A stretch of DNA of 63,554 nt, filler included, from Stramenopiles sp. TOSAG23-6 (lineage: Eukaryota): the NCBI GenBank assembly GCA_900128565.1. It is 39 parts of 39 records of this genome, joined end to end, with 100 filler letters (N's around TTAATTAATTAA, not from the genome) between each part and the next. Parts side by side here need not be neighbours in the genome. Positions count along the whole stretch, not along the records: positions 58,806 to 60,323 come from LT638932.1; 38 more parts are not named here. One strand, 5' to 3'. A program made the translations under genes and the position numbers. The notes beneath the pieces were generated by a model. That model ran no database searches and was not told the origin of the DNA. It saw nothing but the letters and a program-made list of their open reading frames with translations. Positions 1,708 to 63,076 of this stretch are shown here, one piece after another. Within the stretch, counting starts at the first letter, position 1. Every line of letters starts with the position of its first letter.

Positions 1708-2575
1708 TATCGAGATTTTACAGTATCAAAGGGCTGGGAAAAAGTTGTCGCCATGACTCCTGCAACTAGAGAAGCCACAATATGCAAAGGCACACCATCG
1801 CTCATATAATTATTAGAGCATAACAACATTTTTGTTTGATCATAAGAAGCTAGTTGGCCGCAGGCTAAAAAGGCAGCTCGTAGCATTGTCACGGATACTC
1901 CACGATAATACCCTTTAAGTCCTTCATCGCGCAAGATTGTACGGAAGGCGTTAAAAGTTGAAGAATATGTTGGTACTTTCCCTTTATGAAGCCCTGTAGA
2001 ATATTTACCGTCAATACTAAGAGACCCCGCTTCTTGTTGTATCCTAATTTTCACCAAGTCGCAGGGATTTGCGAGTGCTGACCCAAGACCTCCCTGTAAA
2101 ATATGATTATAAATTAAGTTAATTTCGGATGATTTTGACAAATATTAATAATAAAATAGTACGCATTTATATTGCTATGACTTACTGTTGTTAGTGCAGC
2201 ACCCATTCTACGAAACAAACCAATATCTTCTGAACTATCTTTGTGAAATAAATCCTTTATCACTGGGTACATACCAAAACGAAAAGAGCTATATCCAAAT
2301 TCTCTTAAAAGTGATGCTTGCAATCCTGGTATCCATAGTCCCCCATGTCTTGCAAATATACCTTCTTCTGCAATGATTCGTTGAGCAGCTCTAGAAAAGC
2401 TTCCATACATTTTGTTTCTTTTTGCTCCAGTTCCTTCCAGTTGTCCCTCAGTTTGTAACCTGATTTTTATAACATCCATAGGATTGAGTAGGGTGCTAGC
2501 AATAGCATTCGATAGTCCCCCAGCAAGAAGTTCCCGAGGGACACGCATTGGTATATCTTCGCTGGAATCTTCCAT
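1708..2575 (-). CDS. Mitochondrial carrier (SLC25, UCP/dicarboxylate-like), 3' truncated
   Basis: Three PxDxxKxR motifs (NPMDVIKIR, NPCDLVKIR, QPFDTVKSR). Canonical intron at 2094-2185. A family intron starts near 1709. Confidence 0.9.
2094..2185 (-). other. Canonical GT-AG spliceosomal intron
   Basis: aca aca|GTAAGT...TTTTACAG|gga ggt joins LTT-GGLGSALANP in frame. No family core motif. Confidence 0.85.
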
Positions 2576-4936: not shown

Positions 4937-6481
4937 TGTTGGTGATGGCCTTCCTACTGATGATCCACAAGACAATGCTCCCTTTCCGAAGAAGCCGACG
5001 TCATATTCCAAATCTTTATTGCAAACGGTTTTTGAGGAACACTTTATATTAAAAAGATTAGCAATCGTGAGTGGTTGTGGAATCTTCTTTGCTTTATGGA
5101 CAGTTTTCTATAGATTTTCAACCATATTCAACATTTTATTCTGGTTATTTTTCTGGTCTGGATTAGCGTCGTCTTGTTCGATCACAGTTCTATTACTCCG
5201 GCGCTGCGATTGTCGGTGCATACCTGGTATACTTTGGCCAGTTTGAGCTTGTAGCATTTTTTATTGCAGATGATTCCATCAAGCCTGGACCAATAGAAAA
5301 ACTTTTGGCACCATCATTTTGGCGCCCTATTTATACTACTGCATTTTCCGCTGCGGCTGCCCATTGGCTGGTGACAATCTATGAGGACTTTCGGGCGCGT
5401 CGTTTCCTCGGAGTAAAAATCGATTCTGAAATTTCTATGAAAGCAAAAGAATCTGATAAAGAACTTGATGTTGAATCAAATCAAAACGTTGCGGAAAGCT
5501 CAACAAAACGCAGAATATTTAGGTTACATTTTACAAGTGATCCGAATCAGTTCATGTTCAAAGCATACGTATGTTTTATATGAATTTCTAATTTAATTTT
5601 CTTTTCATACGAAATTTCGTACCTAACGATTTTTTTCTGAAATATTTTTTCACAATACATGTGATACACCATCTTCTAACAATTATATGCTATTTGTATT
5701 GTCTTTTTACCCACCGTCTAAGTGGCTTATGTTGTATGGGGCTTTTATTTGAGGCACCCGTGGCTATATTAAACTTTCGAGAATTTGCAGTTATTTTTGA
5801 CGATGAATACAATATTTTTAATTGGTTGTTGTGTTTGCCTTCTGGAGCAACACCTATTTTGCAGTCACTTGCAGATATACAAAAGTTACCTCGAGTTAAA
5901 ATGTTTAGAAAAACTTGGGATTTAATATTTTTTTTAACTGTTTGTTGTCGCTTTAATTGTATCTTAATATACTTTTGGGCTGTGATATGTTGGAGTACAA
6001 AAGTAGCAGAAGAAACTCCTGGTATTGTATACTATATATATCATTTTTTTGGTCTTTGTTTTAGTTTTATAAGTCTTTGGTGGTGGGGCTTGTTGACAAT
6101 GTGGAAGAACCAAGATGAATATAGACTAGTTAAGATGGGCGTGTCTCTCAGTAAAAATAATATATCACTTGATACTATTTCTGAAAGTAAGTGTCCGAAA
6201 GCTTGCTGTAACCGATCTAATATATCTGTTTGTGAGGCTAAAACGTCCCGAGAAAACCTTTTAAATGATGAAAGTTCCACAAAAATAAAAAAATCGCCAA
6301 ACCCATCAAAAACTAGATTTAATAAAACGAAAAATGATAAACAATGCTCTTCTAGTACTACAAAGACAAGTGTCGCCAGAACTAGATGTAGTAAATTATC
6401 TACTGCATTAGTGACAAATCAAGAAGAAGAAGAAGAGTCAGAACCTGATCCTTTGGGTGGATTATGCTGGCTCGGAGATGA
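4937..6481 (+). CDS. TLC (TRAM/LAG1/CLN8)-domain membrane protein, partial
   Basis: Spliced KAY|VIHHLLT...GLLFEAPVAILNFR...RF matches the TLC HH..E.P..N.R pattern. The 5' frame change near 5165 is unresolved. Confidence 0.65.
5569..5660 (+). mobile_element. Family intron, GT...AT
   Basis: gca tac|GTATGTTTT...CACAATACAT|gtg ata cac cat; 92 nt, joins two ORFs in different frames. Confidence 0.85.
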
Positions 6482-9946: not shown

Positions 9947-11358
9947 TCTTGGTTTAGCTTTACATTTAAACCCTTCACAAATAATAGGACCATTATTACA
10001 ACATTGTCATATATATTTAAAACCATCTGCATTACAACGGTTACAAAATGATCGAAGTTCTACAGTATCATGGAATATCACAGAAGATGATTTAGATTTA
10101 TCAATATCTCAAGCGGAGCAACCCTATTCAAAAGTAGCCCATAGTCAAATAGCTAAGATAAAAAGTAAAATTTGGGAATTGTGTAATTGTCTTGAAGAAT
10201 CTGAAAATACTTCTTCCGAATGGGATACTAGTGAAAATGGTACCGTCGCACACACAATCAACACTAACTCTAATGAAGTAAACAATACAAATCGACAACT
10301 TGAAAAGGCTTTGATGTATGTTTTATGGTTTTTCAAATTCGAATGTTTTTTCGAATTCGATTTTTTTTTTTATAAAAATATTGTACCTAACGATTTTTCT
10401 TTCAAATATTTTTCCAAAATACATGAATGCTAGATTTTGTTCAGCAGTATTTGCAACAACTGAAGGTAGCTCATTTGGTCATCAAAATTTAGGATATGAG
10501 GCTACTTTTGCTGAATCATGTTCAATATTACATGTAGGTTTGTATTATGCTGAAAATGATGATTATACGTGTTGTATGGATTGTATCTCTGCATGCTCGT
10601 CGAGTTTTGATGTTTTCAATCTTTGTCCTGCAAATATTGTGGTTCTTTGCACAGTTTTACGGGGGATTTGTTATGAAGCAAAATACGAGGATAATGCAGT
10701 AGCTGTATATTACTTGTATGCATCGGCACTTGAAGCTCTTCAACGATTGCTACCTCAAACACCTCGACATCCAAGTTCAACCTCTACGCTGAATCGTCAA
10801 TCCAGACGAAACCGAAACTCAAACGTTAAGATTCCAGTACGTTTTCAGTATGAATTTCAAATTTATTTTTTTTTCGTACGAAATTTTGTACCTAACAAAT
10901 TTCGAATTTTTTTTTTACAATACATGCACTGAGTAAGAACGATTCTTTCTCTGGAATTCCAGGTGTACATGCACTTGGGCTTGCACTTTGCGTGGCATTA
11001 ATTGAAATCATGCCAAGACTTCCACCACCAGTAATCAAAACTCTGTACGTTTTTTTTCAATTTCGACTTTTTTTTTATTTTTTTTTTTTTTGGTATGAAA
11101 TTTTGTACCTAACAAAAAACAGTAATCAAAAAAAGTTTCCAAAATTACATGCAGCACACTTTTGAATCTCTTGTAGAACTAAAAAATGAACTGCAAAGAT
11201 CTTGTTCTGTGTCTGATATAGTCAGTCATAATAAAATATCAATAATTTTAGCTGCAAGGCAACTACTACTTCAATCTACAAAGTCATTTGAAAAATGGAA
11301 TATTTCGTGTTTTGAAAAGTATATGAAAGTCAAGGATCTATCTGAATTGAAAATTCAT
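9947..11358 (+). CDS. Partial multi-exon helical protein, unknown function
   Basis: Four exons read continuously after removing family introns 10316-10424, 10837-10925 and 11045-11150. Confidence 0.6.
10316..10424 (+). mobile_element. Family intron, GT...AT
   Basis: ttg at|GTATGTTTT...TCCAAAATACAT|g aat; phase 2. Confidence 0.8.
10837..10925 (+). mobile_element. Family intron, GT...AT
   Basis: att cca|GTACGTTTT...ACAATACAT|gca ctg. The upstream exon ends in CA, not AT. Confidence 0.75.
11045..11150 (+). mobile_element. Family intron, GT...AT
   Basis: act ct|GTACGTTTT...CCAAAATTACAT|g cag. Confidence 0.75.
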
Positions 11359-13053: not shown

Positions 13054-13216
13054 NNNNNNNNNNNNNNNNNNNNNNNNNNNNNNNNNNNNNNNNNNNNTTA
13101 ATTAATTAANNNNNNNNNNNNNNNNNNNNNNNNNNNNNNNNNNNNNNNNNNNNTTTTTTTTCATACGAAATTTCGTACCTAACGATTTTTTTTTGAAATA
13201 TTTTTTCATAATCCAT

Positions 13217-14518
13217 CTGAAGATGTAATTGATTTATTATCAAGTAGTGATGAAGAGAATGACCCTGTGTCTGATTCAAATGATGAAGAGAATGACCCTG
13301 TGTCTGATTCAAATGATGAAGAGAATTCATTACAAAATCAATTTGAAGAGCGTTATGGCTCTTACAGTGAAGATAATGCTATAGAAGGAAAGTATAATAG
13401 TTCTACTGAAGAAGAAGAAGAAGAAGAAGAAGAAGATGCTACTGATGATGGATCAGATTTGGATGATATTCAGTCTGCTACTTCCTGGGGTGATATTCAA
13501 TCTCTTATTTTCCCACCAGAAAATGAAATGTTCAATAATTTTACGGATAAAGATATTGAACAAATCTGTCGTGCATTACCGCTAGACAGGAATTTAGATG
13601 AAGAAGAAATTGTAGCTTTCAACAAACGTGGGAAAATCCCAATAACACGTGAAATGATGGGATGTTTGTTAGATAATCAATGGCTTAAAGATGAAGTGAT
13701 GAATTATTTCTTGGAACTTATAGCAGCCCAATCACCTAGTCCTTCAAATCCTTCAAGTGATATCATTGGTGAAACAACAAAATCACTAAATGATACAAGC
13801 CTTCCGTCTGTATACATGTATGTTTTATTTTTTTTCAAATTCGATTTTTTTTCGTACGAAATGCTGTACCTAACGATTTTTTTTTGAAATATTTTTCCAA
13901 AATACATCCATAACACGCATTTTTATTCAAAACTTTTGGAGCATGATCAATACACGTATACAAATGTTCGTAGGTGGACACGAAAAGTAAAAGGAACAAT
14001 TTTTGCGTATGATAAAGTTATTATTCCAATTCATTTAGGAATTCACTGGGTAATGGCAGTAATGTACGTTTTCAAAATAGAATGTGTTTTTTTTCTTGGT
14101 AGAAAATTTCATACCTAACAAAACATTTTTACAAAAAAAATATTTTCCCAAAATTACATAAACTTTCGTGATAAACGATTAGAATATTATGATTCGATGG
14201 CAGCTGTAGATGCTGCTCATAAAGCAGCAGGTAAGTATTGTTTGGAACATTTACAGACTTATCTTAGAGATGAAAGTTTGCACAAAAGAAAAGTNNNNNN
14301 NNNNNNNNNNNAATGAAGAATTTGATTTTTATATTCCTACCAAAGATGAAATCCCCCAACAAGAAAATACCGTTGATTGCGGTGTGTTTGCTCTCAAATT
14401 TGCTGAATTGTGTAGTAGAGACCAAACATTATATGATTCTTTTTCTCAAGAAGATTTTCCACGTTTTAGAAGAGAAATAATGCTACAAATCCTTCAGTCA
14501 AGTGATGAAATTCCTTAA
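13217..14518 (+). CDS. SUMO protease (Ulp1/SENP, peptidase C48), 5' partial
   Basis: WLKDEVMNYF; spliced [53 protein letters not shown]. Confidence 0.95.
13818..13907 (+). mobile_element. Family intron, GT...AT
   Basis: tac at|GTATGTTTT...TCCAAAATACAT|c cat. Contains an in-frame TGA. Confidence 0.9.
14064..14159 (+). mobile_element. Family intron, GT...AT
   Basis: gta at|GTACGTTTT...CAAAATTACAT|a aac restores HWVMAVINF. Contains an in-frame TAA. Confidence 0.9.
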
Positions 14519-16964: not shown

Positions 16965-17886
16965 ATGCGGGAAAAGTATATCCGAAAAAAGATGCTTCAA
17001 AAGTCCAAATTCTTTAGTCGAACTTTAGCTTGGACAGTGTGTATTACTGTAGTAATTTCATTTGTAGTATCTTTTTGGAAAACTTCGATTAATACTTCAC
17101 CCATATCACTATTTAGTATATTTTCTGGTCATGATGGTTCAGGAATTGCTTCAAATAATGATAGACGACTATACCTTGAAAACGAAGTCAATTCAGCCAT
17201 TCGTACTTCTGGCGTCGGTAGTACTTTGCATAAGAGTGCATCTTGTGATTTAGGTACATTCTTGTTTTCAGTTCATGAGTATGATAAAGGCATTGATCAT
17301 TTTGAGGTTGCTGGTGTTGAATGCGCAGGGGTAGAGTTTGCCTCCAGAATGGCTGGACATTTTTATGATAATTACGGAAGACGTAATCCTGTTACTTCAT
17401 TTGTAAAAGGGCTTTCAAATAGTGACAAGGTGTTGTCCTTTTTGTCAATGTTTCATCAAATTTCACAAAAAACACCAATTCCCAATGAAGCTTGGGATGC
17501 TTTACACTCAGGAATTTCTGCAGACGCTGTAGGTATTCGAAGTTGTTTATTACTTGCTGGACTTTTTCAACACAGTACGTTTTTAATTTTTTATCTAATT
17601 TTTTTTTTTGGTTTCATACGAAATTTTGTACCTAACGATTTTTTTTAAAATTTTTTTAAAATATTTTTTTCATTTCAATTTCGAATGTATTGTTTTTTTT
17701 TATAGTAAATTTTGTACCTAACGATTTTAATTTTTGAAATATTTTTCATGATGAATGTTCTCATCGGATAACTTCTTTATCAAGTGTTTTGCTACATGAT
17801 ATTGAAAGATGTGTACTCATTGTAAAAGCTCCATTTAATCCGACGTCTGATGTATTTGAAGCCGGTATTGCTTTAGTAGAATCTAA
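16965..17886 (+). CDS. Type II membrane protein, unknown function, partial
   Basis: N-terminal TM segment; the frame continues across family intron 17575-17756. Confidence 0.6.
17575..17756 (+). mobile_element. Family intron with duplicated core, GT...AT
   Basis: cac a|GTACGTTTT...ATGAAT|gt tct; two AAATTTTGTACCTAAC copies. Confidence 0.7.
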
Positions 17887-18160
17887 GCACGTTTTCAGTA
17901 TGAATTTCAAATTTATTTATTTTTCGTACGAAATTTTGTACCTAACAAATTTCGANTTTATTTTTTTTTNACANANNNNNNNNNNNNNNNNNNNNNNNNN
18001 NNNNNNNNNNNNNNNNNNNTTAATTAATTAANNNNNNNNNNNNNNNNNNNNNNNNNNNNNNNNNNNNNNNNNNNNTTTCAAAAAAAATCTAAAAAAAATT
18101 GTTAGGTACAAAATTTCGTATGAAAAAAAAAATTAAATTAGAAATTCATATAAAGCATAC

Positions 18161-29518: not shown

Positions 29519-30213
29519 ACTTTTAATGGTTATGGAAACAAAAACATCAGATAGAAATTACTCAATCACTTGGGGTACAAGTCCAGCAGTGAATGAACTT
29601 TTTTCTTCATCAACTCGTGCTTGTGTGTTGGAAACGAGTGAAGTAGATACAAATCAAGACGGGATACCTGATTCCATTAATATCAGTCTAGAGGTTCCAT
29701 TAAGAAAGGATGAAGAAGTTTATCGAGCCTCCGTCGTAGCTGCTGTTCAATACTCGCTGAAAGACAGAACTGAATTTTCGATGGAATCTCTGGCATTTCT
29801 AGACCAATCGAGTCCAATCTCTGGCCGTTCTTTGGTATCTGACGGTGATATTGTTCTAAAGCAACGCATTCCTATGACGTTGAAAGGACTTGAAGAAATA
29901 TAACGAACGTGATTTCAGAACTCAGTATGAAATAAATTCTTCATTATGGCTCTCTGCAGGACCAAAGACGGTTGTAGGTGGTACACGGAATTTCAAAATC
30001 GATATGACACTTCGTTTGCCTCAACAAGCTGTGGATTATTACACAAATTGGAGTGAATGTATGAAATTTGCGTTTGTTCAGTATGTTCCATTATTTCTAC
30101 TTTGTCAATATTTAATCAGACGAATTAGAAAATACTTGTATGAAAATCAAGTATTTGAAACCCAATTTGTTGTGGATACTCAATTTGGTCGTCAAAAAGA
30201 GCATCATTTTTAA
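29519..30213 (+). CDS. TMEM231: Ciliary transition-zone protein TMEM231, partial, frame break near 29900
   Basis: EVDTNQDGIPD, MESLAFLD, DGDIVLKQ, KFAFVQY, LYENQV. Confidence 0.8.
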
Positions 30214-45912: not shown

Positions 45913-47250
45913 ATAATAATACAACAACAAATCGAGTGTGTATTTCCTCTGAAGAGAATGAAGATAATACAACAGGTTTGTCAAACATCTCCAAACTATC
46001 CAATGAAACAAATAATAAAAATAATAAAAATAATAAAAATAATAAAAAAAACACGAAAAAACGACAACGTGACGAAGAAATGTCTGATTTTGAAATTGTT
46101 GACAAAAAACAAAAAAATCAAAAAAATCAAAAAAATCAAAAAAATCAAAAAAAAGTACATTATAGCATCCCTCAATACCCAAATAAAATTACTGCTGTAG
46201 GTTGGGAAGATGTAACAATGAGTATTGGTTCCGTATGGGCAGAAATTTTATCATTACAAAAACAATTGTATGTTTTTATCATTTTTCAATTTGGAATTTA
46301 TGTCAAAATTTTTTTTTTTTTTTTTTTCAAAAATTTTTTTTTTTTTTTTTTTTAAAATTTTTTTTTTTTTTTTTTTCTTTCAAAAAAAATTTTTTTTTTT
46401 TTTTTTCGTACAAAAAAATTTTTTTTTTTTTTTCGTACAAAAAAAATTTTTTTTTTTTTTACACTTTTTTTCAAAATTTTTTTTGAAACATAAAAATTTA
46501 CAAAATTGTACAACAAATATGAAATATTGTGCAATACTATAGATATACACCAATGGAGTTACCACTAAGTTCATGGAATTGGCAAAGATCTTTATCACAA
46601 GGACTATCTAAAAAAGTTGAAGTTTTTTTCAAATTAAAAATTCAAAAAAATTCAATACATCAAAAAAAAAATATTTTGAAATTATCAAAGAAAAACATCA
46701 ATATCAATGATGAATGTCATGATGCTGAAGAAGAAATACATGCTGCTGAAAGTGTTGTACATGGGATTAAAGATAGAAAACGTCATGTACATATTATTTT
46801 TTTCATACGAAATTTTGTACCTAACGATTTTTTTTTTCAAAAAAAAATTTTGTACGAAATTTTGTACCTAACAATTTTTTTTTCAAAAATTTTGAAATAT
46901 TTTTTTTACAATACAGTATCATTCAAAAAGATCTCAACGGAGAAAAACCATTGCTCAATCGAACCCTAACCCTAATAATTCGAATACTTCTATTCAATCT
47001 ATTCAGATTAACCCTAACCCTAGAGTATCTAATTTTGGTGTAGAGTGTTCGAGTAGTACAATGACGTCATCGAGTAGTTGTGATGATTTGAACCCTAACC
47101 CTACAACAAAACGGTATGCACGAAATCCACCTATATTTTCTATGAAATTTAAAATTCCTCCACTTTCGAATAACCCTAACCCTAGTAGTACACAGTCAAC
47201 TACATTGAAGAAATCAAAAAAATCAATTCAAATAGTTGGAGTCAAATCAT
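45913..47250 (+). CDS. Unknown low-complexity multi-exon protein
   Basis: Exons between family introns; NK/NQK and NPNP repeats. Confidence 0.45.
46787..46916 (+). mobile_element. Family intron ending in AG
   Basis: cgt cat|GTACATATT...ACAATACAG|tat cat; duplicated core. Confidence 0.75.
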
Positions 47251-47453: not shown

Positions 47454-47506
47454 AACCCGCACTGTCTGATTGGAAGTCAGATTATCTACCAATTAATAAT
47501 ACCCGC
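47454..47506 (-). tRNA. trnG: Mitochondrial tRNA-Gly(UCC), 3' truncated
   Basis: Anticodon arm TCTGA-CTTCCAA-TCAGA. Confidence 0.85.
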
Positions 47507-47510
47507 AATT

Positions 47511-47582
47511 AAGCCAAGGACGGGCTCGAACCGTCTTCAAAAGATTTGCAATCTCTTACATTACCAATTATGCTACTTGACC
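47511..47582 (-). tRNA. trnC: Mitochondrial tRNA-Cys(GCA)
   Basis: Cloverleaf, TTGCAAA anticodon loop, GGTTCGA T-loop. Confidence 0.9.
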
Positions 47583-47595
47583 TTTATTTGATTTT

Positions 47596-47669
47596 TCAGA
47601 GCGGTAGGATTTGAACCTACGACCTACTGCTCCCAAAGCAGTTGCTCTTCCAGGCTAAGCTACGCTCTG
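47596..47669 (-). tRNA. trnP: Mitochondrial tRNA-Pro(UGG)
   Basis: CAGAGCG acceptor stem, TTTGGGA loop. Confidence 0.9.
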
Positions 47670-47672
47670 TAT

Positions 47673-47756
47673 TGGGAAAAGTAGGATTCGAACCTACGTA
47701 GGGAATATCCCAGAAGATTTACAATCTACCGCCTTTAACCACTCAGCCATCTTCCC
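47673..47756 (-). tRNA. trnY: Mitochondrial tRNA-Tyr(GUA)
   Basis: TTGTAAA loop, long variable arm (bacterial type). Confidence 0.9.
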
Positions 47757-47759
47757 GAA

Positions 47760-47832
47760 AGTGTTTAGTAGGATTTGAACCTACATCTACGGGGCCGAAA
47801 CCCATGACTCTATCCAATTGAGCTATAAACAC
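47760..47832 (-). tRNA. trnR: Mitochondrial tRNA-Arg(UCG)
   Basis: GTGTTTA acceptor stem, TTTCGGC loop. Confidence 0.8.
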
Positions 47833-47837
47833 TTTTT

Positions 47838-47909
47838 TATCCCTTACGGGAATTGAACCCGTATTAATGCCTTGAAAAGGCATTGTCCTAACCGTTAGAC
47901 GAAAGGGAC
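47838..47909 (-). tRNA. trnE: Mitochondrial tRNA-Glu(UUC)
   Basis: GTCCCTT acceptor stem, TTTTCAA loop. Confidence 0.9.
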
Positions 47910-47945
47910 TTTTATATTCTAAATAGAATATTTACTTTTAAATAA

Positions 47946-48672
47946 CTAAATGTATAATTGTAAAATACTTAACTTATCTATAATTGGTGTAGGATATACA
48001 CCTAAAAAAATAGTTAGAAATACTAAAGGTAAAAAAACCATAAACTCACGTTTATTTATATCTTCAAAACCGCTAATGAAACTTATTTTTAAATTACCAT
48101 AAGCTATACGATTAAAAAGCCATAACGAATATGCACCACTTAAAATTATACCTAGAGAAGCTATTAAAGCAATAAATGCGTTATCTTGAAAAATACCTGT
48201 AAATAACATAAGCTCTCCGACAAAATTACAAGTACCAGGCAATGCGGCGTTTGCAAAAGTAAATACTAAAAATAAAAAAATAAACAATGGCATTACTTGA
48301 ACAAAACCACCGTAATACTTAACTAAACGTGTATGGTGCCGATCATAAAGCACACCTACACATAAAAATAAAGCACTTGCAACAATTCCATGACTAATCA
48401 TTTGTACAATACTACCTGCAACACCTTGAATATTTAAACTAAATAAACCTAAAACGATTAAATTCATATGTGCAATAGAAGCATATGCTATAATACGTTT
48501 TAAATCTGTTTGACGAATTGCTGTCAGTGAAGTATAAACAATACTTATAGTCGCAATAGTATAAACTATAGGGTTATAATAAATTGCACCAAAACTAAAT
48601 AACGGTATTGAAAACCGAAGAAACCCATAGCTACCTAATTTCAATAAAATACCTGCTAAAATTACAGACCCT

Positions 48673-48680
<8 letters not shown>
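47946..48680 (-). CDS. nad4: NADH dehydrogenase subunit 4, 3' half
   Basis: PTIGSVILAGILLKLGSYG, QTDLKRIIAYASIAHMN, LYDRHHTR. Confidence 0.97.
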
Positions 48681-48977
<297 letters not shown>

Positions 48978-49162
48978 NNNNNNNNNNNNNNNNNNNNNNN
49001 NNNNNNNNNNNNNNNNNNNNNTTAATTAATTAANNNNNNNNNNNNNNNNNNNNNNNNNNNNNNNNNNNNNNNNNNNNATTGTTTTTTTTTTTTATAAAAA
49101 TGTTGTACCTAACAAAATTTTGAAAAAAAAAAAAAAAAAAAAAAAAAAAATTCACAATATAG

Positions 49163-49933: not shown

Positions 49934-50498
49934 CATAGAATTTTTTTTTTTTTTTTTTCATAGAAATTTTTGTACGTAACAAATATATCAACGTTTTTGA
50001 AATATTGTTCCACAATATATTGCAATATCATCCAAATGTGCAAGGTAAAAACACATCATCTGGTGTTTTTGATTTACTACTAACTACTTGTATGTTGGTC
50101 AATCAACAGAATCCTAACACTGGTTTTATCATTTTTTACAATCAATTTTTTTTTTTAATTTTTTTTTGGTAGATAATTTTGTACCTAAGATTTTTTTTTT
50201 TAAATTTTGAGTTATTTTCACACAAATGCAGCTGTAGATTGGACATGTAAACTTTGGAATCTCAGTCAGAATGATAGACCATTATATGTTTTATTTTTTT
50301 TAATTTTTTTTTGTTTGGTTTTCGTACGAAATTTCGTACCTAACAAATTTTAACAAAAAAAAATATTTTTCACAATATATATATTCTTTTCAAGCTCATG
50401 ACTATTTACTTGATGTGAAATGGTCACCCATGCATCCTTCATTATTTGCTACCGGTGATGCTAGTGGCAATGTCAATTTTTGGAATATAAATGTCGAT
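49163..50498 (+). CDS. Cytoplasmic dynein intermediate chain (WD40), internal exons
   Basis: Spliced HTQPIYSLSMVGTAAANNLVSVST..GHFGPVTALQYHP..LLTTSVDWTCKLW..PLYSF..DVKWSPMHPSLFA. Seven family introns or intron ends. Confidence 0.9.
49228..49329 (+). mobile_element. Family intron, GT...AT
   Basis: tca at|GTATGTTT...GAAATAAAT|g gta. Confidence 0.85.
49594..49708 (+). mobile_element. Family intron (core degraded), GT...AT
   Basis: ccc ac|GTATTTTT...AAAATAAAT|g ggt. Confidence 0.65.
49840..50020 (+). mobile_element. Family intron, GT...AT
   Basis: gcg t|GTACGTTT...CACAATATAT|tg caa. Confidence 0.85.
50090..50231 (+). mobile_element. Family intron ending in AG
   Basis: act t|GTATGTT...CACAAATGCAG|ct gta gat tgg. 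Confidence 0.85.
50284..50380 (+). mobile_element. Family intron with ATATGTTT 5' end (exact register ambiguous)
   Basis: cca tt|ATATGTTTT...CACAATATAT|a tat tct restores RPLYSF. A +4 shift gives an equivalent GT...AT intron. Confidence 0.75.
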
Positions 50499-50807: not shown

Positions 50808-51735
50808 TAAGCTATACAACATCTAAAAAATGTTCAAAATTACTTATAGACGCCGGTGCTGATCTATCAAAGATTCATTTTCGTGCATCTTTAAAGAATC
50901 AAAACATGAATGTATCTTTTATTTTTTTTTTTTAAACAAAAAAATTCGAATTTATTTTTTTTTGAAAATTTTGTACCTAACAATTTTTTTAGATTTTTTT
51001 TGAAATATTTTTCCAAAATACGTGGACAAATTGGACAAAATAATTTTTTATATTCTTCATTTGATGAAACAATAACAGAAATGAATGGATTTGACTTATT
51101 ACGACTGTATTTAATAACACAAAGAAAATTAAAACATTTGAGAATAAAACGAAATAGTTTGAATGTATTAGAACAATCAAAAAAATATAGTACATCTCAA
51201 ACGATGCATTCAAAAATGAGGTATCAAAATAGATTTAGTACGTTTTATTTTTTATTTTTTTTTGAGTTTTTGAATTTTTTGAATTTTTTTTCATACGAAA
51301 TTTTGTACCTAACAAAAAACAAATTTAAAAAAAAAAAAATTCACAATATATGCAATACACCAGTCATCTATGATGTATTTGATGATAGGTGGACAAAAAA
51401 AGAAGTTCAAAAACGTATTCAACAATATACAAAGAACCAAAACAACACAAGAAATCCTAACTTTAATCAACAATATCCACATTTTTCACTTCGAGTAGGT
51501 AAAGGTATTACATCTGAATATCGTGATTATAATCATTCAAAGTCTTTCAAAAGACATTTAAATAGTAGTTCTAGAAGTAGTATCATGAAACGACACTTAT
51601 ATAGTTCTAGAAGTAATACAAAACATTTAAAACAATATTTGCGTTCATTTGCACATGATCAAAATCAAAATCAAAATGTACATCATATAGAAAACAAAAA
51701 AATAAAAGAAATAAAAGAAATAAAAGAAACCAAAA

Positions 51736-52116: not shown

Positions 52117-52326
52117 GTACGTTTTTTATTTCAATTTTTTTTTTGAAATTAAATTTTGTTTTTTTTTCGTACGAAATTTTGTACCTAACATATTTTTTTT
52201 TTTTAATATTTTTTTTTTCTCCATNNNNNNNNNNNNNNNNNNNNNNNNNNNNNNNNNNNNNNNNNNNNTTAATTAATTAANNNNNNNNNNNNNNNNNNNN
52301 NNNNNNNNNNNNNNNNNNNNNNNNAT

Positions 52327-52425
52327 GTATGTTTTCAGGATCAATTTTAAATTCATTTTTTTTTCGTACGAAATTTTGTACCTAACAAAAACTTTTACTA
52401 AAAAAAATATTTTCCCAAAATACAT
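52327..52425 (+). mobile_element. Family intron, GT...AT
   Basis: at|GTATGTTTT...CCCAAAATACAT|g aaa. The upstream exon is lost at the contig edge. Confidence 0.75.
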
Positions 52426-53781
52426 GAAAGCTACGGATAAAATGAATCGTCTTATGAAAAATGCAGGAAAAAAAATCACCTCACATGTGGGAAAGAATAA
52501 AGATGTTCATTTTTCTTCTAAAACTAAAAGAATGTATGTTTTCATCAATTCTAACTAATTATAGATAATGACGTACCTCAATGTTTTTTTTAATCTACAT
52601 TTTTTTTATAGGAAATTTCGTACCTAACAAATTTGAAAAAAAAAATATACTTTTTTACAATGTGTGGTCGCAACATTTGAAAAAGATTCACATAATTTGA
52701 AACAAGTAACTAGAAGTGGTTTGTCTCTGTTGATGCAAAGTCTTCAGCACGTAGAAAACAAAGCGAGTCTTCGAATTGTTCATTCAACAATATATCAGAA
52801 ACATGTCGCTGTCAAGCATGTACATTTTNAAAATTGAATTTCAAATGTATATATATTTTTCATACTAAATTCCGTACCTAACGATTTTTTTTCGGTAAAA
52901 AAAAAATATATTTTTTCACAATACAGGGACATGTAGAAGAAGATCCCGATCCAACAAAATCAAGTGCAACTCAGCAAAATCTCGCTGCAGCTTCAATTAT
53001 TGTTAATGCTGTGATGGATTTCAATACGGAAGTACGTTTTCATTATGAATTTTAAATTTCTTTTTTTTTATTCAAAACAAAATATACTAAACAAATTTCA
53101 AATTTGATATAATTCCCCAAAATACATGTATTCTACTCTATGGACTGTGCTGCGGAAATTGTACTAGAAGATGGCAAAAATGTTGTAGTAGATACGACAG
53201 ATGATATCTATGGAAAAGAAGCTTCAGAACTTGTATCTGAAGTTGCTGAAGCACTCACTGATGATATATCTGTTGCTGGTACAATGTGTAAAATGGCAAG
53301 CATTGCCTCGTGTGGTACAACCACTGTAGTTGTAGGTATTGGCAAAAGCGCGATACATTTGAAAAATCGTTCAGAATGGGCGTCAGGCGATATCATTCAA
53401 CAAGGGTTTATGTACAGTTTACTTCCTCGAGAGTTATCAGATGTAATTAAAGTTGCTAAAAGTGTAAGCAAAAGCACAAAAGAAAAGGCAACCAATTTTT
53501 ATCATCAAGGTCTGGAAAGTTTTCAAAAAATAAAAAAACAAACCTGGTTTCGCAAGGGTAAAGCAGTAGCTGCTGCAAAAGATCATGAAACACCTAAAAC
53601 AACGAAAAACAATGCGACTGATAGTATCGTACATGAAATGGATGGTGTAACAAAAGAAGCTGATGTAGTTGTGAATGTTGCAACAAAAGTGATTCTAAAG
53701 TGGACCAAAGTCTGGTGTATTTTACGACAAGACACCTTTGCTGTATTTCAGGAAAAGCCAAAAAAAGATAACGCAGAAGAT
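52426..53781 (+). CDS. Multi-exon protein reaching the start of a PH domain
   Basis: KWTKVWCILRQDTFAVF. Continuous frame after removing introns 52534-52665, 52820-52926 and 53031-53127. Confidence 0.6.
52534..52665 (+). mobile_element. Family intron ending in GT
   Basis: aga at|GTATGTTTT...ACAATGTGT|g gtc. Confidence 0.6.
52820..52926 (+). mobile_element. Family intron ending in AG
   Basis: aag cat|GTACATTTT...CACAATACAG|gga cat. Confidence 0.8.
53031..53127 (+). mobile_element. Family intron, GT...AT
   Basis: acg gaa|GTACGTTTT...CCAAAATACAT|gta ttc. Confidence 0.8.
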
Positions 53782-53991
53782 GTATGTTTTATTTTTTTTC
53801 AATTTCGATTTTTTTTCGTACGAAATTTTGTACCTAACGATTTTTNNNNNNNNNNNNNNNNNNNNNNNNNNNNNNNNNNNNNNNNNNNNTTAATTAATTA
53901 ANNNNNNNNNNNNNNNNNNNNNNNNNNNNNNNNNNNNNNNNNNNNAAAATGAAAAAATACACAAAAATTTAGAGCCTTGTATTTGTTCAGG

Positions 53992-58805: not shown

Positions 58806-59648
58806 GAGGCAGAAGGTTGTATAAGATATCGGCGAGTGTTTAATGCAATTCAACGTCAGGTGGAAGAAGAAGTCAAAACAAATTCAGGTTTAGATAGCGT
58901 TCCTCTCTCTGAAGCGATAGCATCATCAGCAGTAAAAACAGCAATGTATGTTTTTCATCATAAAAAAAGTTTCAATTTTTTTTCATACGAAATTTCGTAC
59001 CTAAACAAAAAAAATATTTTTTTTTTTTTCACAATACATGGACATTGGCGCTAAAGCTATCGTAGTGCTTACACAAAGTGGAGCCACTGCCCGTTTAGTT
59101 GCTAAATATCGTCCAAGTCAACCAATATTATGTCTAACACCATCCACAGACACTGCACGAAATACAAATGGATTACTCCGGGGTGTGACATCGCGTGTTA
59201 TGTACGTTTTTTTTGTACCAAATTTTGTACCTAACGAATTTTTTTTTTTTTTTTTTTTCATTCATTTCAAATTTTTTTTTCATTGAAAATTTTGTACCTC
59301 ATAATTTTTTTTTCTAAAAAAAAAATATGTTTTCACAATACATGAAATCAATGGAAGGTTCAGATGGCATTCTTAGACAAGCAGGTCTGTTAGCCAAAGA
59401 ATTAGGGTGGGTGAATTCAGGGGATCTTTACGTAGCTATTCACGTATGTTTTTTTTTTGGTACGAAATTGTATACCTAACAATTTCTTTTAAATCATTTG
59501 TTTCATCATTTATGTCCTTTTTTTTTTTTTTTAAATTTTTGTTACTTAACAAAACATTGAATGTCTGAAATATTTTTTCATAGTACATGGACAAATTGAA
59601 GGTCTTAGTGGTGAAACTAATTTGATGAAAGTACTAACAGTGTCTTAG
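58806..59648 (+). CDS. Pyruvate kinase C-terminal domain, four exons
   Basis: EAIASSAVKTAMDIGAKAIVVLTQSGATARLVAKYRP..LRGV..GDLYVAIHGQIEGLSGETNLMKV*. Confidence 0.95.
58946..59039 (+). mobile_element. Family intron, GT...AT
   Basis: gca at|GTATGTTT...CACAATACAT|g gac. Confidence 0.9.
59202..59343 (+). mobile_element. Family intron with duplicated core, GT...AT
   Basis: gtt at|GTACGTTT...CACAATACAT|g aaa. Confidence 0.9.
59444..59588 (+). mobile_element. Family intron, GT...AT
   Basis: att cac|GTATGTTT...CATAGTACAT|gga caa. Confidence 0.88.
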
Positions 59649-59651
59649 TTT

Positions 59652-59890
59652 TATGTTTTTTTTTTTAAATAAAAGTAGAAATATAAGACATTTCTTATTG
59701 TATGTTTTTTTTTAAAAAAAAAAGTAGAAATATAAGACATTTCTTATTGTATGGTTTTTAAAATAAAAGTAGAAATATAAGACATTTCTTATTGTATGGT
59801 TTTTTTAAATAAAAGTAGAAATATAAGATATTTCTTATTGTATGGTTTAAAAAAAAAAAATAGAAATATAAGACATTTATTATTGTATGG
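59652..59890. repeat. Five tandem units of about 47 nt downstream of the PK stop
   Basis: TATG(G/T)TTTT..AAA(T)AAAAGTAGAAATATAAGACATTTCTTATTG x5. Confidence 0.85.
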
Positions 59891-60484
59891 TACAATATAT
59901 AAGATATCATATGCTAAAAGTTATAATTCTTGTTCAAATTGATTAATGACGTCATTACTACGGTTTATAAATTGTTGAGCCATTGTCACATGAAAATTCA
60001 ATGCGATTCGTTCGGCGCGTCGTACGTAAGCCAAAACTTTCTTATTCATTGATGCTGAAACGTCACTACATGTTTTTCTATCATTTTCTTCAGAAAATTT
60101 ACCATTATACGCAGGACTTTTAATTTTTTTTTGAATAATTTGTAGAAATTGAGTATATGCTAGAGTTTCATTTTCCTTGGAAACAAATCCTAAGAATGAA
60201 TTGTCTTTATCCCACGAATTCTCTACTTTTGAAAAATCATTTTCAGTAAGATTTGATAAACGAAGGCATGTATTTTGGAAAAATATTTCAAAAAAAAAAA
60301 CTTAAATTTGTTAGGTACAAAATNNNNNNNNNNNNNNNNNNNNNNNNNNNNNNNNNNNNNNNNNNNNTTAATTAATTAANNNNNNNNNNNNNNNNNNNNN
60401 NNNNNNNNNNNNNNNNNNNNNNNGCATAGTACAATACGCGCACTTACACGATATATATACTCTCAAGTAAAGCCTATTAAAGAT

Positions 60485-61066
60485 GTGAATCGAAATAAAT
60501 GTAAAAATGTACAGTTAAAACATATGCGTGTCCCAAGGACACTTGGAGCAAAGACGCATGAAAAGATTGCCATTACCGGAATGGCTTGCCGATTCCCAGG
60601 GAATTCAAATACACCTGATTCTTTTTGGAATATGTTATGTAGTGGATATGATGCGATGTCTGCGAATCCTCCAGCATGGCGTCGTGACCTTGGTGGTGGA
60701 GGTGGGTTTTTGTCGGAAGAAACTATAACTACGTTTGACCCGAAAGCCTTTGGTTTGTCTCCAAATGAAGCTCAGGAGATGGATCCACAACAACGGCTTC
60801 TGTTACAAACAGCGAGAGAAGCACTCGAAGATTCTGGAATGCTACAAAATGATGGTTCTGTTATTGATAATGAAATGGTTGGAGTATACTTAGGTATGAT
60901 GAATTTTGATTATTCGGCGAAAGCTATCGATTCGGAATCACCGTATTCAGTTACTGGTGTTTCAATGAGTATTGCTGCGAATCGTATTTCGTATATATTT
61001 AATTTACGTGGACCATGTTTTGCAGTCGATACCGCTTGTTCATCAAGTCTTGTTGCGATGCACCGG
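60485..61066 (+). CDS. Type I polyketide synthase, ketosynthase N-half
   Basis: IAITGMACRFPG, MDPQQRLLL, ANRISY, DTACSSSLVA. Confidence 0.95.
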
Positions 61067-61939
61067 TAACAGTTGAAACAAACTTTATATTATTATGAAN
61101 CTTGGTATGTCCTTGAAGAATGNTTGAGGCTGCAGAACGAATATCAGGNATTGCCGATTCAACACATTCACTNTGAAATCCACTNGTNACACCAAGTCGN
61201 TTTGCCTTTATTGATTTCGAGTGTAATAAAACAAGNGTNTTATTTATTGNTTCNACTGAACCACTAANTACAACACTTTTAGGACCATTGACAACTGCTA
61301 CAACGACATCTNTGATATTTGCTGAAGCTAAAANTATTTCAANATTTTCCTCAGATTCCCATACAGCTGCCATTGTTCCAGTTTCTGTGCTATNTGANTG
61401 TGCAAGTTTCGACATTGCTTTACCACGAGCCGCAACAAGGGCACATGCCTCAGATAATGTTAACATACCTGCTATACACATAGCGGCAAACTCACCTAGA
61501 CTATGTCCCACTACCGCAATTGGTTCAACACCGAGTTGCTTCTGAATGACTTGACAAAGTGCATACTCCACAGCAAATAATGCTGGTTGTGCGAATGTAG
61601 GATCACTTAAATTTAATGATATGTTTGTATTGCTGGATTCATCGGTATCAAGTTGTTTATATAACTTCGAAACTAGAGAGACTTCCATATACTCAACGAA
61701 GAACTTGTCGCATTCTTCCATTGCATCACGAAAAATAGTGTTGTTCTGGTACATTTGAAAAGCCATATTTGAGTATTGTGCGCCTTGGCCAGTGAATACA
61801 AATGCAACTCTACATGGATTTTGCAATATTTTACCGACTACTACATTACTTTTTGTTTCACTATTTTCTAAACTTTCAAGACTCTTTTGTAGATTATCTA
61901 TTGANTCTGTTACNATAGCAGNACGNTNTGCATGTCGTT
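61058..61939 (-). CDS. Type I polyketide synthase, acyltransferase domain
   Basis: FVFTGQGAQ, AQPALF, GHSLGE, VNGP. Confidence 0.95.
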
Positions 61940-62041: not shown

Positions 62042-63076
62042 ATGAATCAAGTAGTTATGACAGATACTGGAACGAATGAAAGCCAAATTATTGCGTTGGG
62101 AGTGCCCGGGGTGAGTTCGAGATTGAGGCATGGTCGATGGAAGCCCTTCGAACACAAAAGATTCGTTGATGGTATAAAGATACATGGTAAAGAATGGAAG
62201 AAAATTGCAGATGTTGTTAACACAAGAACAGTTGTACAGATTCGAACGCATGCCCAAAAATACTTTCTAAAATTGGAAAGAGATGCCTTGAGACGCGCTA
62301 ATGGCGGAGTGCTTCCAAAGAATCTTCCTGCTAGTAAAGTAAGTACGAAAAAAAATAAAAAGTCAAAGCCTTCCCCCAAAAAGAAGATTGTGATGAAAAA
62401 AAGAAGAGAAAGTGCTAAGAAACGAAAATCAGGCACTAATGATATGTCTACTGCTGTCAGTCGCGGTGGATACATGTATTCTGATTATAATCCAAGTATG
62501 CTTTCACTCATGGCACCTAACACGAAAACAACGTTTAATCCAAGAGATGGGAGTCCTACAGCAGTGTCTGATATTAGCCTTCCCTACCAAATGGATATAT
62601 CCTCGGGTTCAAAACGACACAAAACTGACACTTTACAACTCAGTGATAGAGTGAATGACTCTGCTACCGAACTCTCTGAACTTTTCAGTTGTCCAATTAC
62701 GAATAATTCGGGTATGGAGAGTATAGTTACAGGAGAAACAAATGATGGAATGCTCACAAATTGGCTCAATGTATGTTTTATTTTTTGTTCAATTTTGAAT
62801 TTATTTTTTATAGTCAATTTTATACCTAACAAATTTTAGTTTTTTTTTTTGAAATATTTTTCCAAAATACACGATGTTGGAACATCAGCTCCACTTGGGT
62901 TACGATCCGACACAGAAGGATCTTCAGATAATAACTCTGACACTGTATCTAATTTTCAATCTAATGGAAACTCCATATCAGCTGATTGTGGCAAATGGGA
63001 AGAATCTTGGTCACAGCCATTTGATTTTGGTGCTTCGTTTGACAAACTGCCCATGTTAGAAATAGAAAATTCGTAA
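62042..63076 (+). CDS. MYB-related (SHAQKYF class) transcription factor
   Basis: GRW...EHKRF...TRTVVQIRTHAQKYF. Two exons joined by family intron 62771-62872. Confidence 0.9.
62771..62872 (+). mobile_element. Family intron ending in AC
   Basis: ctc aat|GTATGTTTT...TCCAAAATACAC|gat gtt. Contains an in-frame TAG. Confidence 0.8.

What the first reader, a model, noticed from the sequence alone, without database searches (positions are those of the whole stretch)
58900..59648. Pyruvate kinase carries three family introns in about 650 bp
A core glycolytic gene is restored by removing 58946-59039, 59202-59343 and 59444-59588, all GT..ACAT. The third has an AG five bases upstream of its end (CATAGTACAT), and using it would frameshift the protein. 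An available AG therefore appears to be skipped in favour of AT.
Basis: partly seen in the sequence, partly recalled or inferred. Interest (0 to 1): 0.85.

Follow-up and report, generated by a model that had tools for sequence, protein, structure and literature searches.

The report
Mobile GT-to-AT introns in pyruvate kinase
The end of a pyruvate kinase gene from an AT-rich marine protist is split by three copies of a repeated mobile intron that appears to be cut out from GT to AT instead of the usual GT to AG, which would make it an unusual splicing rule if RNA data confirm it.

Summary
The window is 39 short contigs joined by linkers. Contig 58806-60323 holds the 3' end of a pyruvate kinase (PK) gene. 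Removing 58946-59039, 59202-59343 and 59444-59588 gives a 152-aa PK C-terminus. It aligns end to end with homologues (52.9% identity, down to their last residue). No gap falls at any junction in 31 of 31 homologues.

All three introns belong to a highly repeated family. It has a GTAYGT start, a small hairpin next to a GTACCTAAC box (44 copies against 0.09 expected), a T-run, and a CA(A/C)AATACAT end. Fifteen of 15 testable members keep the reading frame with GT..AT borders. GT..AT is the only border pair possible for all 15. Two further members, in a Ulp1/SENP-like gene, are also gapless against 23 homologues.

The AG at 59582-59583 frameshifts if used with the GT at 59444. An in-frame AG alternative (donor at 59448) adds three residues seen in 0 of 31 homologues.

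A few members carry AG, AC or GT at the homologous last position. The 3' border therefore looks position-defined.

I obtained no RNA evidence. RNA-level removal and a spliceosomal mechanism are inferences. Verdict: a new variant of introner-like, non-canonical introns.

The parts
58806..58945 (+). PK exon, cut at its 5' side by the contig start; ends with AT of a split ATG codon
   Evidence: Open frame. Aligns to homologues without a gap at the junction.
58946..59039 (+). Family intron 1 (94 nt), GTATGT...CACAATACAT, phase 2
   Evidence: Branch-like CCTAAAC at 59000-59006. No AG near the end.
59040..59201 (+). PK exon 2
   Evidence: Pfam PK_C 8.2e-18. PDB pyruvate kinases, best E-value 2e-10.
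59202..59343 (+). Family intron 2 (142 nt), GTACGT...CACAATACAT, phase 2, with two core modules
   Evidence: GTACCTAAC at 59227-59235 and GTACCTCAT at 59294-59302.
59344..59443 (+). PK exon 3
   Evidence: Residues 2-33 align to 3eoe_A 461-492 (E 1.1, weak). Gapless in the alignment.
59444..59588 (+). Family intron 3 (145 nt), GTATGT...CATAGTACAT, phase 0
   Evidence: TACCTAAC at 59473-59480 and TACTTAAC at 59543-59550. Only GT..AT or TA..TG borders give this mRNA.
59582..59583 (+). AG lying 5 nt before the inferred intron end, apparently not used
   Evidence: It frameshifts with donor 59444. With donor 59448 it adds 3 residues seen in 0 of 31 homologues.
59589..59648 (+). Last PK exon (19 codons plus TAG)
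   Evidence: Aligns to the very C-terminus of the homologues.
13818..13907 (+). Family intron in a Ulp1/SENP-like gene, GT..AT, phase 2
   Evidence: Junction is gapless against 23 of 23 homologues. Its borders exclude the TA..TG reading.
14064..14159 (+). Family intron in the same gene, GT..AT, phase 2
   Evidence: Junction is gapless, and the split codon gives a residue conserved in the homologues. Excludes TA..TG.
46787..46916 (+). Family member ending in AG at the homologous position (5' GTACAT)
   Evidence: Phase 0 on both sides, 88 and 145 open codons.
52820..52926 (+). Family member ending in AG (5' GTACAT), in a gene whose other introns end AT, GT and AT
   Evidence: The four exons join into a 340-aa frame with no stops, against 23-24 stops in the other two frames.

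Best explanation
The PK gene is interrupted by three members of a proliferated intron family that resembles introners (introns created by transposon-like elements). The basic unit is about 90 nt, and longer copies hold two core modules.

Each copy carries its own signals, in this order:
- a GTAYGT 5' end;
- a T-run;
- a small palindromic hairpin directly followed by a CTAAC branch-like box;
- a second T-run;
- a conserved CA(A/C)AATACAT 3' end.

The element is removed from the transcript exactly from the G of GT to the final T of ACAT. This restores the coding sequence.

The 3' cut is set by the element's own conserved end and not by an AG. Most copies end in AT. A few end in AG, AC or GT at the same position. 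AGs lying upstream of that position are passed over.

The most likely machine is the major spliceosome with a relaxed requirement at the 3' site.

Shown: the sequence family, the frame-keeping, and the exact borders by homology for five introns.
Inferred: that removal happens at RNA level, that the CTAAC box is the branch site, and that the spliceosome does the cutting.

The AT before the GT (23 of 30 copies) together with the terminal AT fits a 2-nt target-site duplication, or an AT|G insertion preference, of a small DNA element with GTAT/ATAC ends.
For: PK:
- All three junctions are gapless against 31 of 31 homologues.
- BLAST of the GT..AT product against P0009 covers 153 of 153 positions up to the subject's last residue, at 155 bits.
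- In PDB chain 3eoe_A, exon 2 maps to residues 409-456 and exon 3 to 461-492. The chain has 511 residues, which is 492 plus the 19 residues of exon 4.

Family:
- A rule-based scan found 27 sites with the 3' motif. Twelve had no 5' partner in their contig. Fifteen were paired, and one of these was untestable at a contig start.
- Fourteen of the 14 testable pairs were frame-consistent. With 10837-10925 this makes 15 of 15. Chance is 1 in 3 for each.
- The border shifts that give the same mRNA are GT..AT in 15 of 15, TA..TG in 13 of 15, TG..CA in 10 of 15 and AT..AC in 9 of 15.
- Both junctions of the Ulp1-like gene are gapless against 23 of 23 homologues.
- Motif enrichment is given.
- The CTAAC-type box lies 30-48 nt before the end in the members listed.
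- Variants ending in AG, AC or GT at the homologous position keep the frame.
- All tested members lie in the sense orientation of their host frame.
Against: - There is no transcript evidence. The read-laying run failed, and two metagenome scans found no near-identical PK.
- No snRNA genes are available, because no whole genome is held and Rfam found only tRNAs in the window.
- A 3' AT is a very poor substrate for known major spliceosomes (my own knowledge).
- One member, with its donor at 17575, is not frame-consistent at the homologous CAT end. It is consistent only 7 nt further on, at an AAT end.
- 34174-34056 is ambiguous and 50090-50380 is inconsistent.
- Frame tests fix the borders only modulo 3. 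Exact borders rest on five introns in two genes.
Confidence: 0.6

Rival explanations
1. The elements are removed from RNA by a non-spliceosomal route, as proposed for euglenid and hemistasiid nonconventional introns and for the Amoebophrya introners. In that route, short direct repeats at the junctions and pairing of the intron ends define the cuts.
For: - Direct repeats of 1-7 nt overlap the junctions in 15 of 15 members (shift ranges).
- The 5' GUAU can pair with the 3' AUAC, which leaves a 2-nt 3' tail. This helix appears in several minimum-free-energy folds.
- The last dinucleotide varies between copies.
- Comparable layouts are described in PMC7789003 (passages) and PMC12621601 (sections read).
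Against: - The borders are conserved, not variable.
- The 5' end is a textbook GTAYGT, and a CTAAC box plus a T-run are conserved.
- The end-to-end helix is only about 4 bp.
- Folds are barely more stable than shuffled sequence, with z from +0.16 to -3.67 in 16 members.
- The copy ending in GTGT (52534-52665) has no matching change at its 5' end.
Confidence: 0.2
2. They are minor-spliceosome (U12-type) introns. Such introns tolerate non-AG 3' ends, including GT-AT.
For: - GT-AT is a documented rare U12 subtype, with 7 cases in human and mouse. U12 splicing accepts GT-AT experimentally (PMC1557818 passages).
- The CCTAAC box loosely resembles the U12 branch box.
Against: - None of 30 family 5' ends has the CC of RTATCCTT. 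All read GTAYGT.
- The box lies 30-48 nt from the end, which is further than is usual for U12 introns (my own knowledge).
- A long T-run is present.
- AT..AC borders are possible for only 9 of 15 members.
Confidence: 0.07
3. For intron 3 only: the AG at 59583 is used after all, together with a donor at 59448. This would give a PK with three extra residues.
For: The combination is in frame (+9 nt) and gives an open frame.
Against: - The insertion is absent from 31 of 31 homologues.
- It costs one gap and 6 bits against P0009.
- The donor at 59448 would read GTTTTT.
- Introns 1 and 2 have no such option.
Confidence: 0.07
4. The elements are not removed from RNA. Either the genes are dead copies hit by small transposons, or the elements are excised at DNA level, as in ciliate internal eliminated sequences.
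For: No RNA data were seen. The family looks transposon-like, with short inverted ends and an AT on both sides.
Against: - Fifteen of 15 members keep the frame and lie in the sense orientation.
- The exons show no stops and are conserved.
- The borders are not TA..TA.
- Spliceosome-like signals are conserved inside the element.
Confidence: 0.05

Closest known systems
Introner elements of marine algae and protists (Micromonas, Aureococcus, Chrysochromulina, dinoflagellates; PMC9860276, passages read)
   Same: - Many near-identical short introns sit in unrelated genes.
- The element carries one splice site and borrows the rest from a short repeat at the insertion site.
- Removal is precise and restores the coding sequence.
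   Different: - Described introners are spliced at canonical GY..AG. This family ends in AT.
- Its inverted ends are only about 4-7 nt.
- Whether the AT repeat is a target-site duplication is ambiguous.
Non-canonical introner elements of Amoebophrya (PMC7789003, passages read)
   Same: - They are repeated introns with non-GT-AG borders.
- Direct repeats of 3-5 nt overlap the junctions.
- The inverted ends can pair.
- The organism is a marine protist.
   Different: - In Amoebophrya no dinucleotide pair dominates, the 5' end is not U1-like, and no U1 was found.
- Here the 5' GTAYGT and the 3' ACAT are nearly invariant.
- This genome is far more AT-rich.
Nonconventional introns of euglenids and hemistasiid diplonemids, and the non-canonical introns predicted in marine diplonemid single-cell genomes (PMC12621601, PMC6221363; the 2016 primary paper is not held)
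   Same: - The borders are non-GT-AG.
- A transposon origin is suspected.
- Short repeats lie at the junctions.
- The diplonemid 5' consensus GTATG is shared.
   Different: - Those introns have variable, often G+C-rich borders and strong end-to-end pairing.
- This family has fixed borders and weak pairing.
- The lineage of this organism is unresolved.
Fritillaria borealis non-canonical introns (known to me only through citing papers)
   Same: A major spliceosome is thought to handle a majority class of non-GT-AG introns that derive from transposons.
   Different: The Fritillaria borders are reported as AG-A(N), so the 5' end is non-canonical there. Here the 5' end is canonical and only the 3' end departs.
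Rare GT-AT introns of mammals (PMC1557818, passages read)
   Same: They have the same terminal dinucleotides. One U2-type case is conserved in DGCR2, and there are 7 U12-type cases.
   Different: Those are isolated single introns. Here it is a proliferating family, apparently the main intron type in the family-bearing contigs.

Membership tests
U2-type GT-AG spliceosomal intron | 5' GT with a U1/U6-like extended consensus | tested here: met
   GTAYGT in all 30 collected 5' ends. The set was chosen by the pattern GTAYGTTT, so this is partly circular. That pattern is enriched 31 against 2.89 expected.
U2-type GT-AG spliceosomal intron | Branch-site YTRAY followed by a pyrimidine tract upstream of the 3' end | tested here: met
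   A CTAAC-type box lies 30-48 nt from the end, followed by T-runs. Its use as the branch point was not tested.
U2-type GT-AG spliceosomal intron | 3' terminal AG | tested here: not met
   All 22 collected typical 3' ends read ACAT. AG occurs only in variants at 46916, 52926 and 49153.
U2-type GT-AG spliceosomal intron | Removal by the spliceosome as a lariat | not testable with these tools
   No reads could be laid.
U12-type intron | 5' RTATCCTT | tested here: not met
   None of 30 ends has CC at +5 and +6.
U12-type intron | Branch box TCCTTAAC close to the 3' end | tested here: not met
   The box reads (A)CCTAAC and lies 30-48 nt from the end. The usual distance range for U12 introns is recalled, not tested.
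Introner (transposon-like intron family) | Many highly similar introns in unrelated genes of one genome | tested here: met
   There are 44 core copies in 18 of 39 contigs. Hosts include PK, a Ulp1-like gene, tyrosinase and an ABC protein.
Introner (transposon-like intron family) | Target-site duplication and/or terminal inverted repeats | tested here: inconclusive
   AT precedes the GT in 23 of 30 copies and ends the intron in all typical copies. The GTAT/ATAC ends are inverted. The match is the same across loci, so a duplication cannot be told from an insertion-site preference.
Introner (transposon-like intron family) | Spliced at canonical sites | tested here: not met
   The inferred borders are GT..AT.
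Euglenid-type nonconventional intron | Variable borders with no U1-like 5' end | tested here: not met
   The borders are conserved and the 5' end is GTAYGT.
Euglenid-type nonconventional intron | Stable pairing that brings the intron ends together | tested here: inconclusive
   Only a helix of about 4 bp is possible. z ranges from +0.16 to -3.67 in 16 members.
Ciliate internal eliminated sequence | TA..TA borders with one TA retained | tested here: not met
   No TA..TA reading is allowed for the PK introns.
Pyruvate kinase (host gene) | PK_C alpha/beta domain continuous to the C-terminus | tested here: met
   Pfam PK_C for exon 2. The spliced product aligns to homologues' C-termini at 50-53% identity. 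The barrel domain lies off the contig.

The most novel reading that the evidence does not exclude
An uncultured marine protist carries a proliferating mobile intron family whose 3' splice site is not AG. The site is fixed by position within the element: AT in most copies, with AG, AC or GT at the same spot in others. Well-placed AGs upstream of that spot are ignored. Ordinary GTAAGT...AG introns seem to coexist in the same assembly. That would mean a splicing machinery that has dropped 3' AG recognition for a whole class of introns, a natural system for asking how the 3' site is chosen in the second step of splicing.
Probability: 0.4. Interest if true: 0.8.

Novelty: new variant of a known kind. 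Interest (0 to 1): 0.62.

Why it matters
Recognition of AG at the 3' splice site is among the most conserved rules of gene expression. Known exceptions fall into three kinds. Some are rare single introns. Some are lineages where both borders have degenerated (Amoebophrya, hemistasiids, Euglena). One is Fritillaria, where the 5' end changed.

A family that keeps a textbook 5' site, branch box and T-tract but ends in AT would isolate the 3'-site question cleanly. It would also catch intron gain by a mobile element in action.

There is a practical point too. Standard gene finders would miss or garble most genes of such a genome, including core metabolism such as PK.

Tried and rejected
- **Junction reads.** The look-up of sequencing runs listed 16 runs. 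Three DNA runs held 63-95% of the sampled words, and ten poly(A) seawater RNA runs held 5-17%. Unlaid shares are not evidence, so I draw nothing from them.\n- **Exact 30-mer of exon 3 in metagenome contigs.** It had 0 matches.\n- **search for related loci with exon 2.** It returned 80 loci, the best at 64% identity. None was a near relative, so I found no spliced or intron-free copy.\n- **search for homologous proteins with the Ulp1 exon.** It gave no hit.\n- **The Ulp1 downstream exon alone against the PDB.** Only chance hits came back.\n- **Whole genome and earlier findings.** Neither was available.\n- **The broad scan.** Pairing GTAYG with the nearest TACAT gave 140 pairs, mostly noise, so I dropped it in favour of the rule. 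Its pair 52534-52600 was a false positive, because that 'exon' would contain the family core. The homologous end is 52665.\n- **A GTGAGT...CACAG candidate at 5067-5187.** I rejected it as more likely a frameshift, because it would remove 40 open, coding-like codons.\n- **RNase III-like or tRNA-endonuclease-like cutting at the 2-nt stagger.** I considered this and set it aside because the helix is too short.\n- **Lineage.** It remains unresolved. The nearest named relative of PK exon 2 is Platysulcus tardus, a stramenopile (73% identity). The best PDB hits are Leishmania PKs. The mitochondrion-like nad4 + tRNA contig argues against a diplonemid, if it belongs to the same cell.\n- **Literature.** Searches found no paper describing a GT-AT intron family. 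The 2016 marine diplonemid paper is not held, and supplements were closed. A prior description may therefore exist that I could not see.

Full report
**What the window is.** The 63,554 bases are 39 contigs of about 1.5 kb, sorted by length and joined by N-TTAATTAATTAA-N linkers. The DNA is AT-rich, with G+C from 0.22 to 0.39 per 2 kb. The finding lies in contig 58806-60323. Public runs holding this contig are three small DNA runs of one coded organism, several seawater metagenomes, and poly(A) metatranscriptomes. The source is therefore a marine eukaryote with a very fragmented assembly. No whole genome is held.

**The observation.**
- 58946-59039: GTATGT...CACAATACAT.
- 59202-59343: GTACGT...CACAATACAT.
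- 59444-59588: GTATGT...CATAGTACAT, with an AG at 59582-59583.

Removing them gives a single open frame ending at TAG 59646-59648. The intron phases are 2, 2 and 0. Exon 2 alone hits Pfam PK_C at 8.2e-18, while exons 1 and 3 alone hit nothing. Exon 2 also hits 83 PDB pyruvate kinases.

**Are the borders right?** I could not submit the spliced protein to the database tools, so I used single exons there and did the joins in scripts.
- In PDB chain 3eoe_A (511 residues), exon 2 residues 3-51 map to 409-456. Exon 3 residues 2-33 map to 461-492, a weak hit at E 1.1. That leaves exactly 19 residues, the length of exon 4.
- I fetched 31 PK homologues with exon 2 and aligned them with the spliced product. 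None of the 31 has a gap at junction 1, 2 or 3.
- BLAST of the GT..AT product against P0009 covers 153 of 153 positions and ends at the subject's last residue (52.9% identity, 155 bits).
- Using AG 59583 with donor 59444 frameshifts and loses the last 19 residues (132 bits).
It inserts three residues found in 0 of 31 homologues and scores 149 bits with one more gap.

**Border ambiguity.** For introns 1 and 2 the same mRNA also results from AT..AC, TG..CA or TA..TG borders. For intron 3 only GT..AT or TA..TG are possible.

**The family.** The three introns are members of a highly repeated family.
- A typical copy is about 90 nt. It reads GTAYGTTTT, then a T-run, then a small palindrome of the type (C/T)GTACGAAATTT(C/T)GTAC. 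That palindrome runs into CCTAAC, followed by a second A/T-run and then CA(A/C)AATACAT.
- Longer copies, including PK introns 2 and 3, hold two core modules.
- GTACCTAAC occurs 44 times against 0.09 expected. GTAYGTTTT occurs 31 times against 2.89. CAMAATACAT occurs 20 times against 1.05. None of 100 shuffles reached these counts.
- The core is present in 18 of 39 contigs.
- Twenty of 78 contig termini have a family motif within 90 nt, against 9.6% of random 90-nt windows. The assembly therefore tends to break inside this repeat.

**Frame test across the family.** A rule-based scan looked for a family 3' motif and the nearest upstream GTAYGT(T/G)T.
- It found 27 3' sites. Twelve had no 5' partner in their contig.
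- Fifteen were paired. One pair sits at a contig start and cannot be tested.
- All 14 others keep the best upstream and downstream frames in register when cut as GT..AT.
- Adding 10837-10925, which the regular expression missed, gives 15 of 15. Chance is 1 in 3 for each.
- GT..AT is allowed for 15 of 15. TA..TG is allowed for 13, TG..CA for 10 and AT..AC for 9.
- The two members that exclude TA..TG lie in a Ulp1/SENP-like gene (Pfam Peptidase_C48; SENP1 in the PDB). I fetched homologues for that gene. Both of its junctions are gapless in 23 of 23 aligned homologues, and the split codon of the second gives a residue they share.

Exact GT..AT borders are thus supported by homology for five introns in two genes.

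**Results against a simple rule.**
- The member with donor 17575 has a shortened 3' end. It is not in frame at the homologous CAT (17749) but is in frame 7 nt later, at an AAT end.
- 34174-34056 is ambiguous, and 50090-50380 is out of frame.
- A few members have another dinucleotide at the position homologous to AT. These are:
  - AG in 46787-46916 and 52820-52926, both with a GTACAT 5' end;
  - AG at 49153, whose 5' end is cut off;
  - AC in 62771-62872, where the downstream frames of 67 and 61 codons are not clearly separated;
  - GT in 52534-52665 and at 51023;
  - CCAT or TCAT at 13216, 19555 and 44263.
- In contig 52325-53845 four successive introns end in AT, GT, AG and AT. The four exons join into a 340-aa frame with no stop, against 23 and 24 stops in the other two frames.
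- One copy has a GC donor, at 17890.

I read this as a 3' border fixed by position in the element, not by the dinucleotide itself. These variants rest on reading frame only.

**AG skipping.** In the 14 rule-based members, an AG lies within the last 45 nt in 3 members: 11045-11150 (28 and 15 nt from the end), 33992-33903 (29 nt) and PK intron 3 (5 nt). Other 3' ends show TTTAG-type AGs shortly after the CTAAC box. PK intron 3 is the most informative case. Its AG is well placed, and homology speaks against its use. The AG arose by one change in the conserved AATACAT.

**Structure.** Folds of 16 full members are weak, with z from +0.16 to -3.67. The 5' GUAU pairs either with an internal AUAC or with the terminal AUAC, which leaves a 2-nt AU tail. 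This is too weak to count as the stable end pairing of nonconventional introns.

**Ends and origin.** AT precedes the GT in 23 of 30 5' ends. G follows the final T in 15 of 22 3' ends. GTAT and ATAC are inverted. This fits a small DNA element with a 2-nt AT duplication that carries its 5' splice site and builds its 3' end from the duplication. Such layouts are described for introners (PMC9860276 passages). Because the repeat is the same at all loci, a target-site duplication cannot be told from an AT|G insertion preference.

**Do ordinary introns coexist?** A mitochondrial-carrier contig has a probable canonical intron on the minus strand, 2185 to 2094, reading GTAAGT...TTTTACAG.
- The Pfam match of the downstream frame starts at the first residue after the AG.
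- An in-frame ...AATCAT end 9 nt upstream cannot be excluded.
- The 14-3-3 contig has a GTAAGT donor at 8378 and a TACTAAC further on.
- GC3 of family-bearing and family-free contigs overlaps. Nothing therefore marks these contigs as foreign, but a common origin is not proven.

**Mechanism.**
- Best supported (0.6): RNA-level removal by the major spliceosome, using element-borne GTAYGT, a CTAAC branch box and a T-tract, with a 3' cut at the element's conserved end regardless of AG.
- Rivals: a non-spliceosomal route guided by end pairing and direct repeats (0.2); the minor spliceosome (0.07); AG use with a shifted donor in intron 3 only (0.07); no RNA-level removal (0.05).

**Comparison with what is known.**
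- Non-canonical, repeated introns with junction repeats and inverted ends are described in Amoebophrya (PMC7789003).
- Variable nonconventional introns are described in euglenids and hemistasiid diplonemids. Non-canonical introns were predicted without transcript data in marine diplonemid single-cell genomes (PMC12621601; PMC6221363; PMC6792441). The primary 2016 paper is not held.
- GT-AT itself is known as a rare border pair of single mammalian introns (PMC1557818).
- My four literature searches found no description of a family with conserved GT..AT borders. Supplements were closed.
- Lineage is unresolved. Hints point to a stramenopile-like PK and a gene-rich mitochondrial contig.

**Verdict.** RNA proof is missing. 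I rate it a new variant of introner-like non-canonical introns, with interest 0.62.

Noticed in passing
47454-48977 (tRNAs at 47510-47909, minus strand; ORF 47949-48680, minus strand): One contig holds the C-terminal 244 codons of NADH dehydrogenase subunit 4 / NuoM (NCBIfam 2.9e-94). Five tightly packed tRNA genes (Glu, Arg, Tyr, Pro, Cys) follow it on the same strand. It looks like part of a gene-rich mitochondrial genome or an alphaproteobacterium. If it is mitochondrial and from the same cell, it argues against a diplonemid or myzozoan host.
   Followed up: partly
60424-61939: A polyketide/fatty-acid synthase ketosynthase N-domain lies on the plus strand (60425-61066). An acyltransferase domain lies on the minus strand (61002-61937) of the same 1.5-kb contig, which also has many single Ns. 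This may be an inverted chimera from whole-genome amplification, or two genes.
   Followed up: no
59660-59891: A 45-nt unit is repeated 5 times (88% matches) directly after the PK stop codon, between PK and a converging minus-strand gene (59924-60301). That gene itself ends in a family intron cut by the contig end.
   Followed up: partly
2094-2185 (minus strand) and 8378 onward (plus strand): Probable ordinary introns with GTAAGT donors occur in a mitochondrial-carrier gene (GTAAGT...TTTTACAG, 92 nt) and in a 14-3-3 gene (TACTAAC box at about 8677). Both lie in contigs without the family. The middle part of the 14-3-3 N-terminus was not located.
   Followed up: partly
contig termini throughout, e.g. 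16437, 37679, 39208, 34315, 60323: Twenty of 78 contig ends lie within 90 nt of a family motif, against 9.6% of random 90-nt windows. The assembly breaks inside this repeat, which implies a very high copy number in the genome.
   Followed up: yes
29780-30000: The TM231 gene frames 29520-29900 and 29884-30210 overlap by 17 nt in different frames near an A-run. This is more likely a 1-nt assembly error than an intron. A similar case lies at about 5160-5250.
   Followed up: partly
46787-46916 and 52820-52926: The two family copies that end in AG both start with GTACAT instead of GTAYGT. This may be a subfamily signature, or a link between position +5 and the last base. Two cases are too few to tell.
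   Followed up: no
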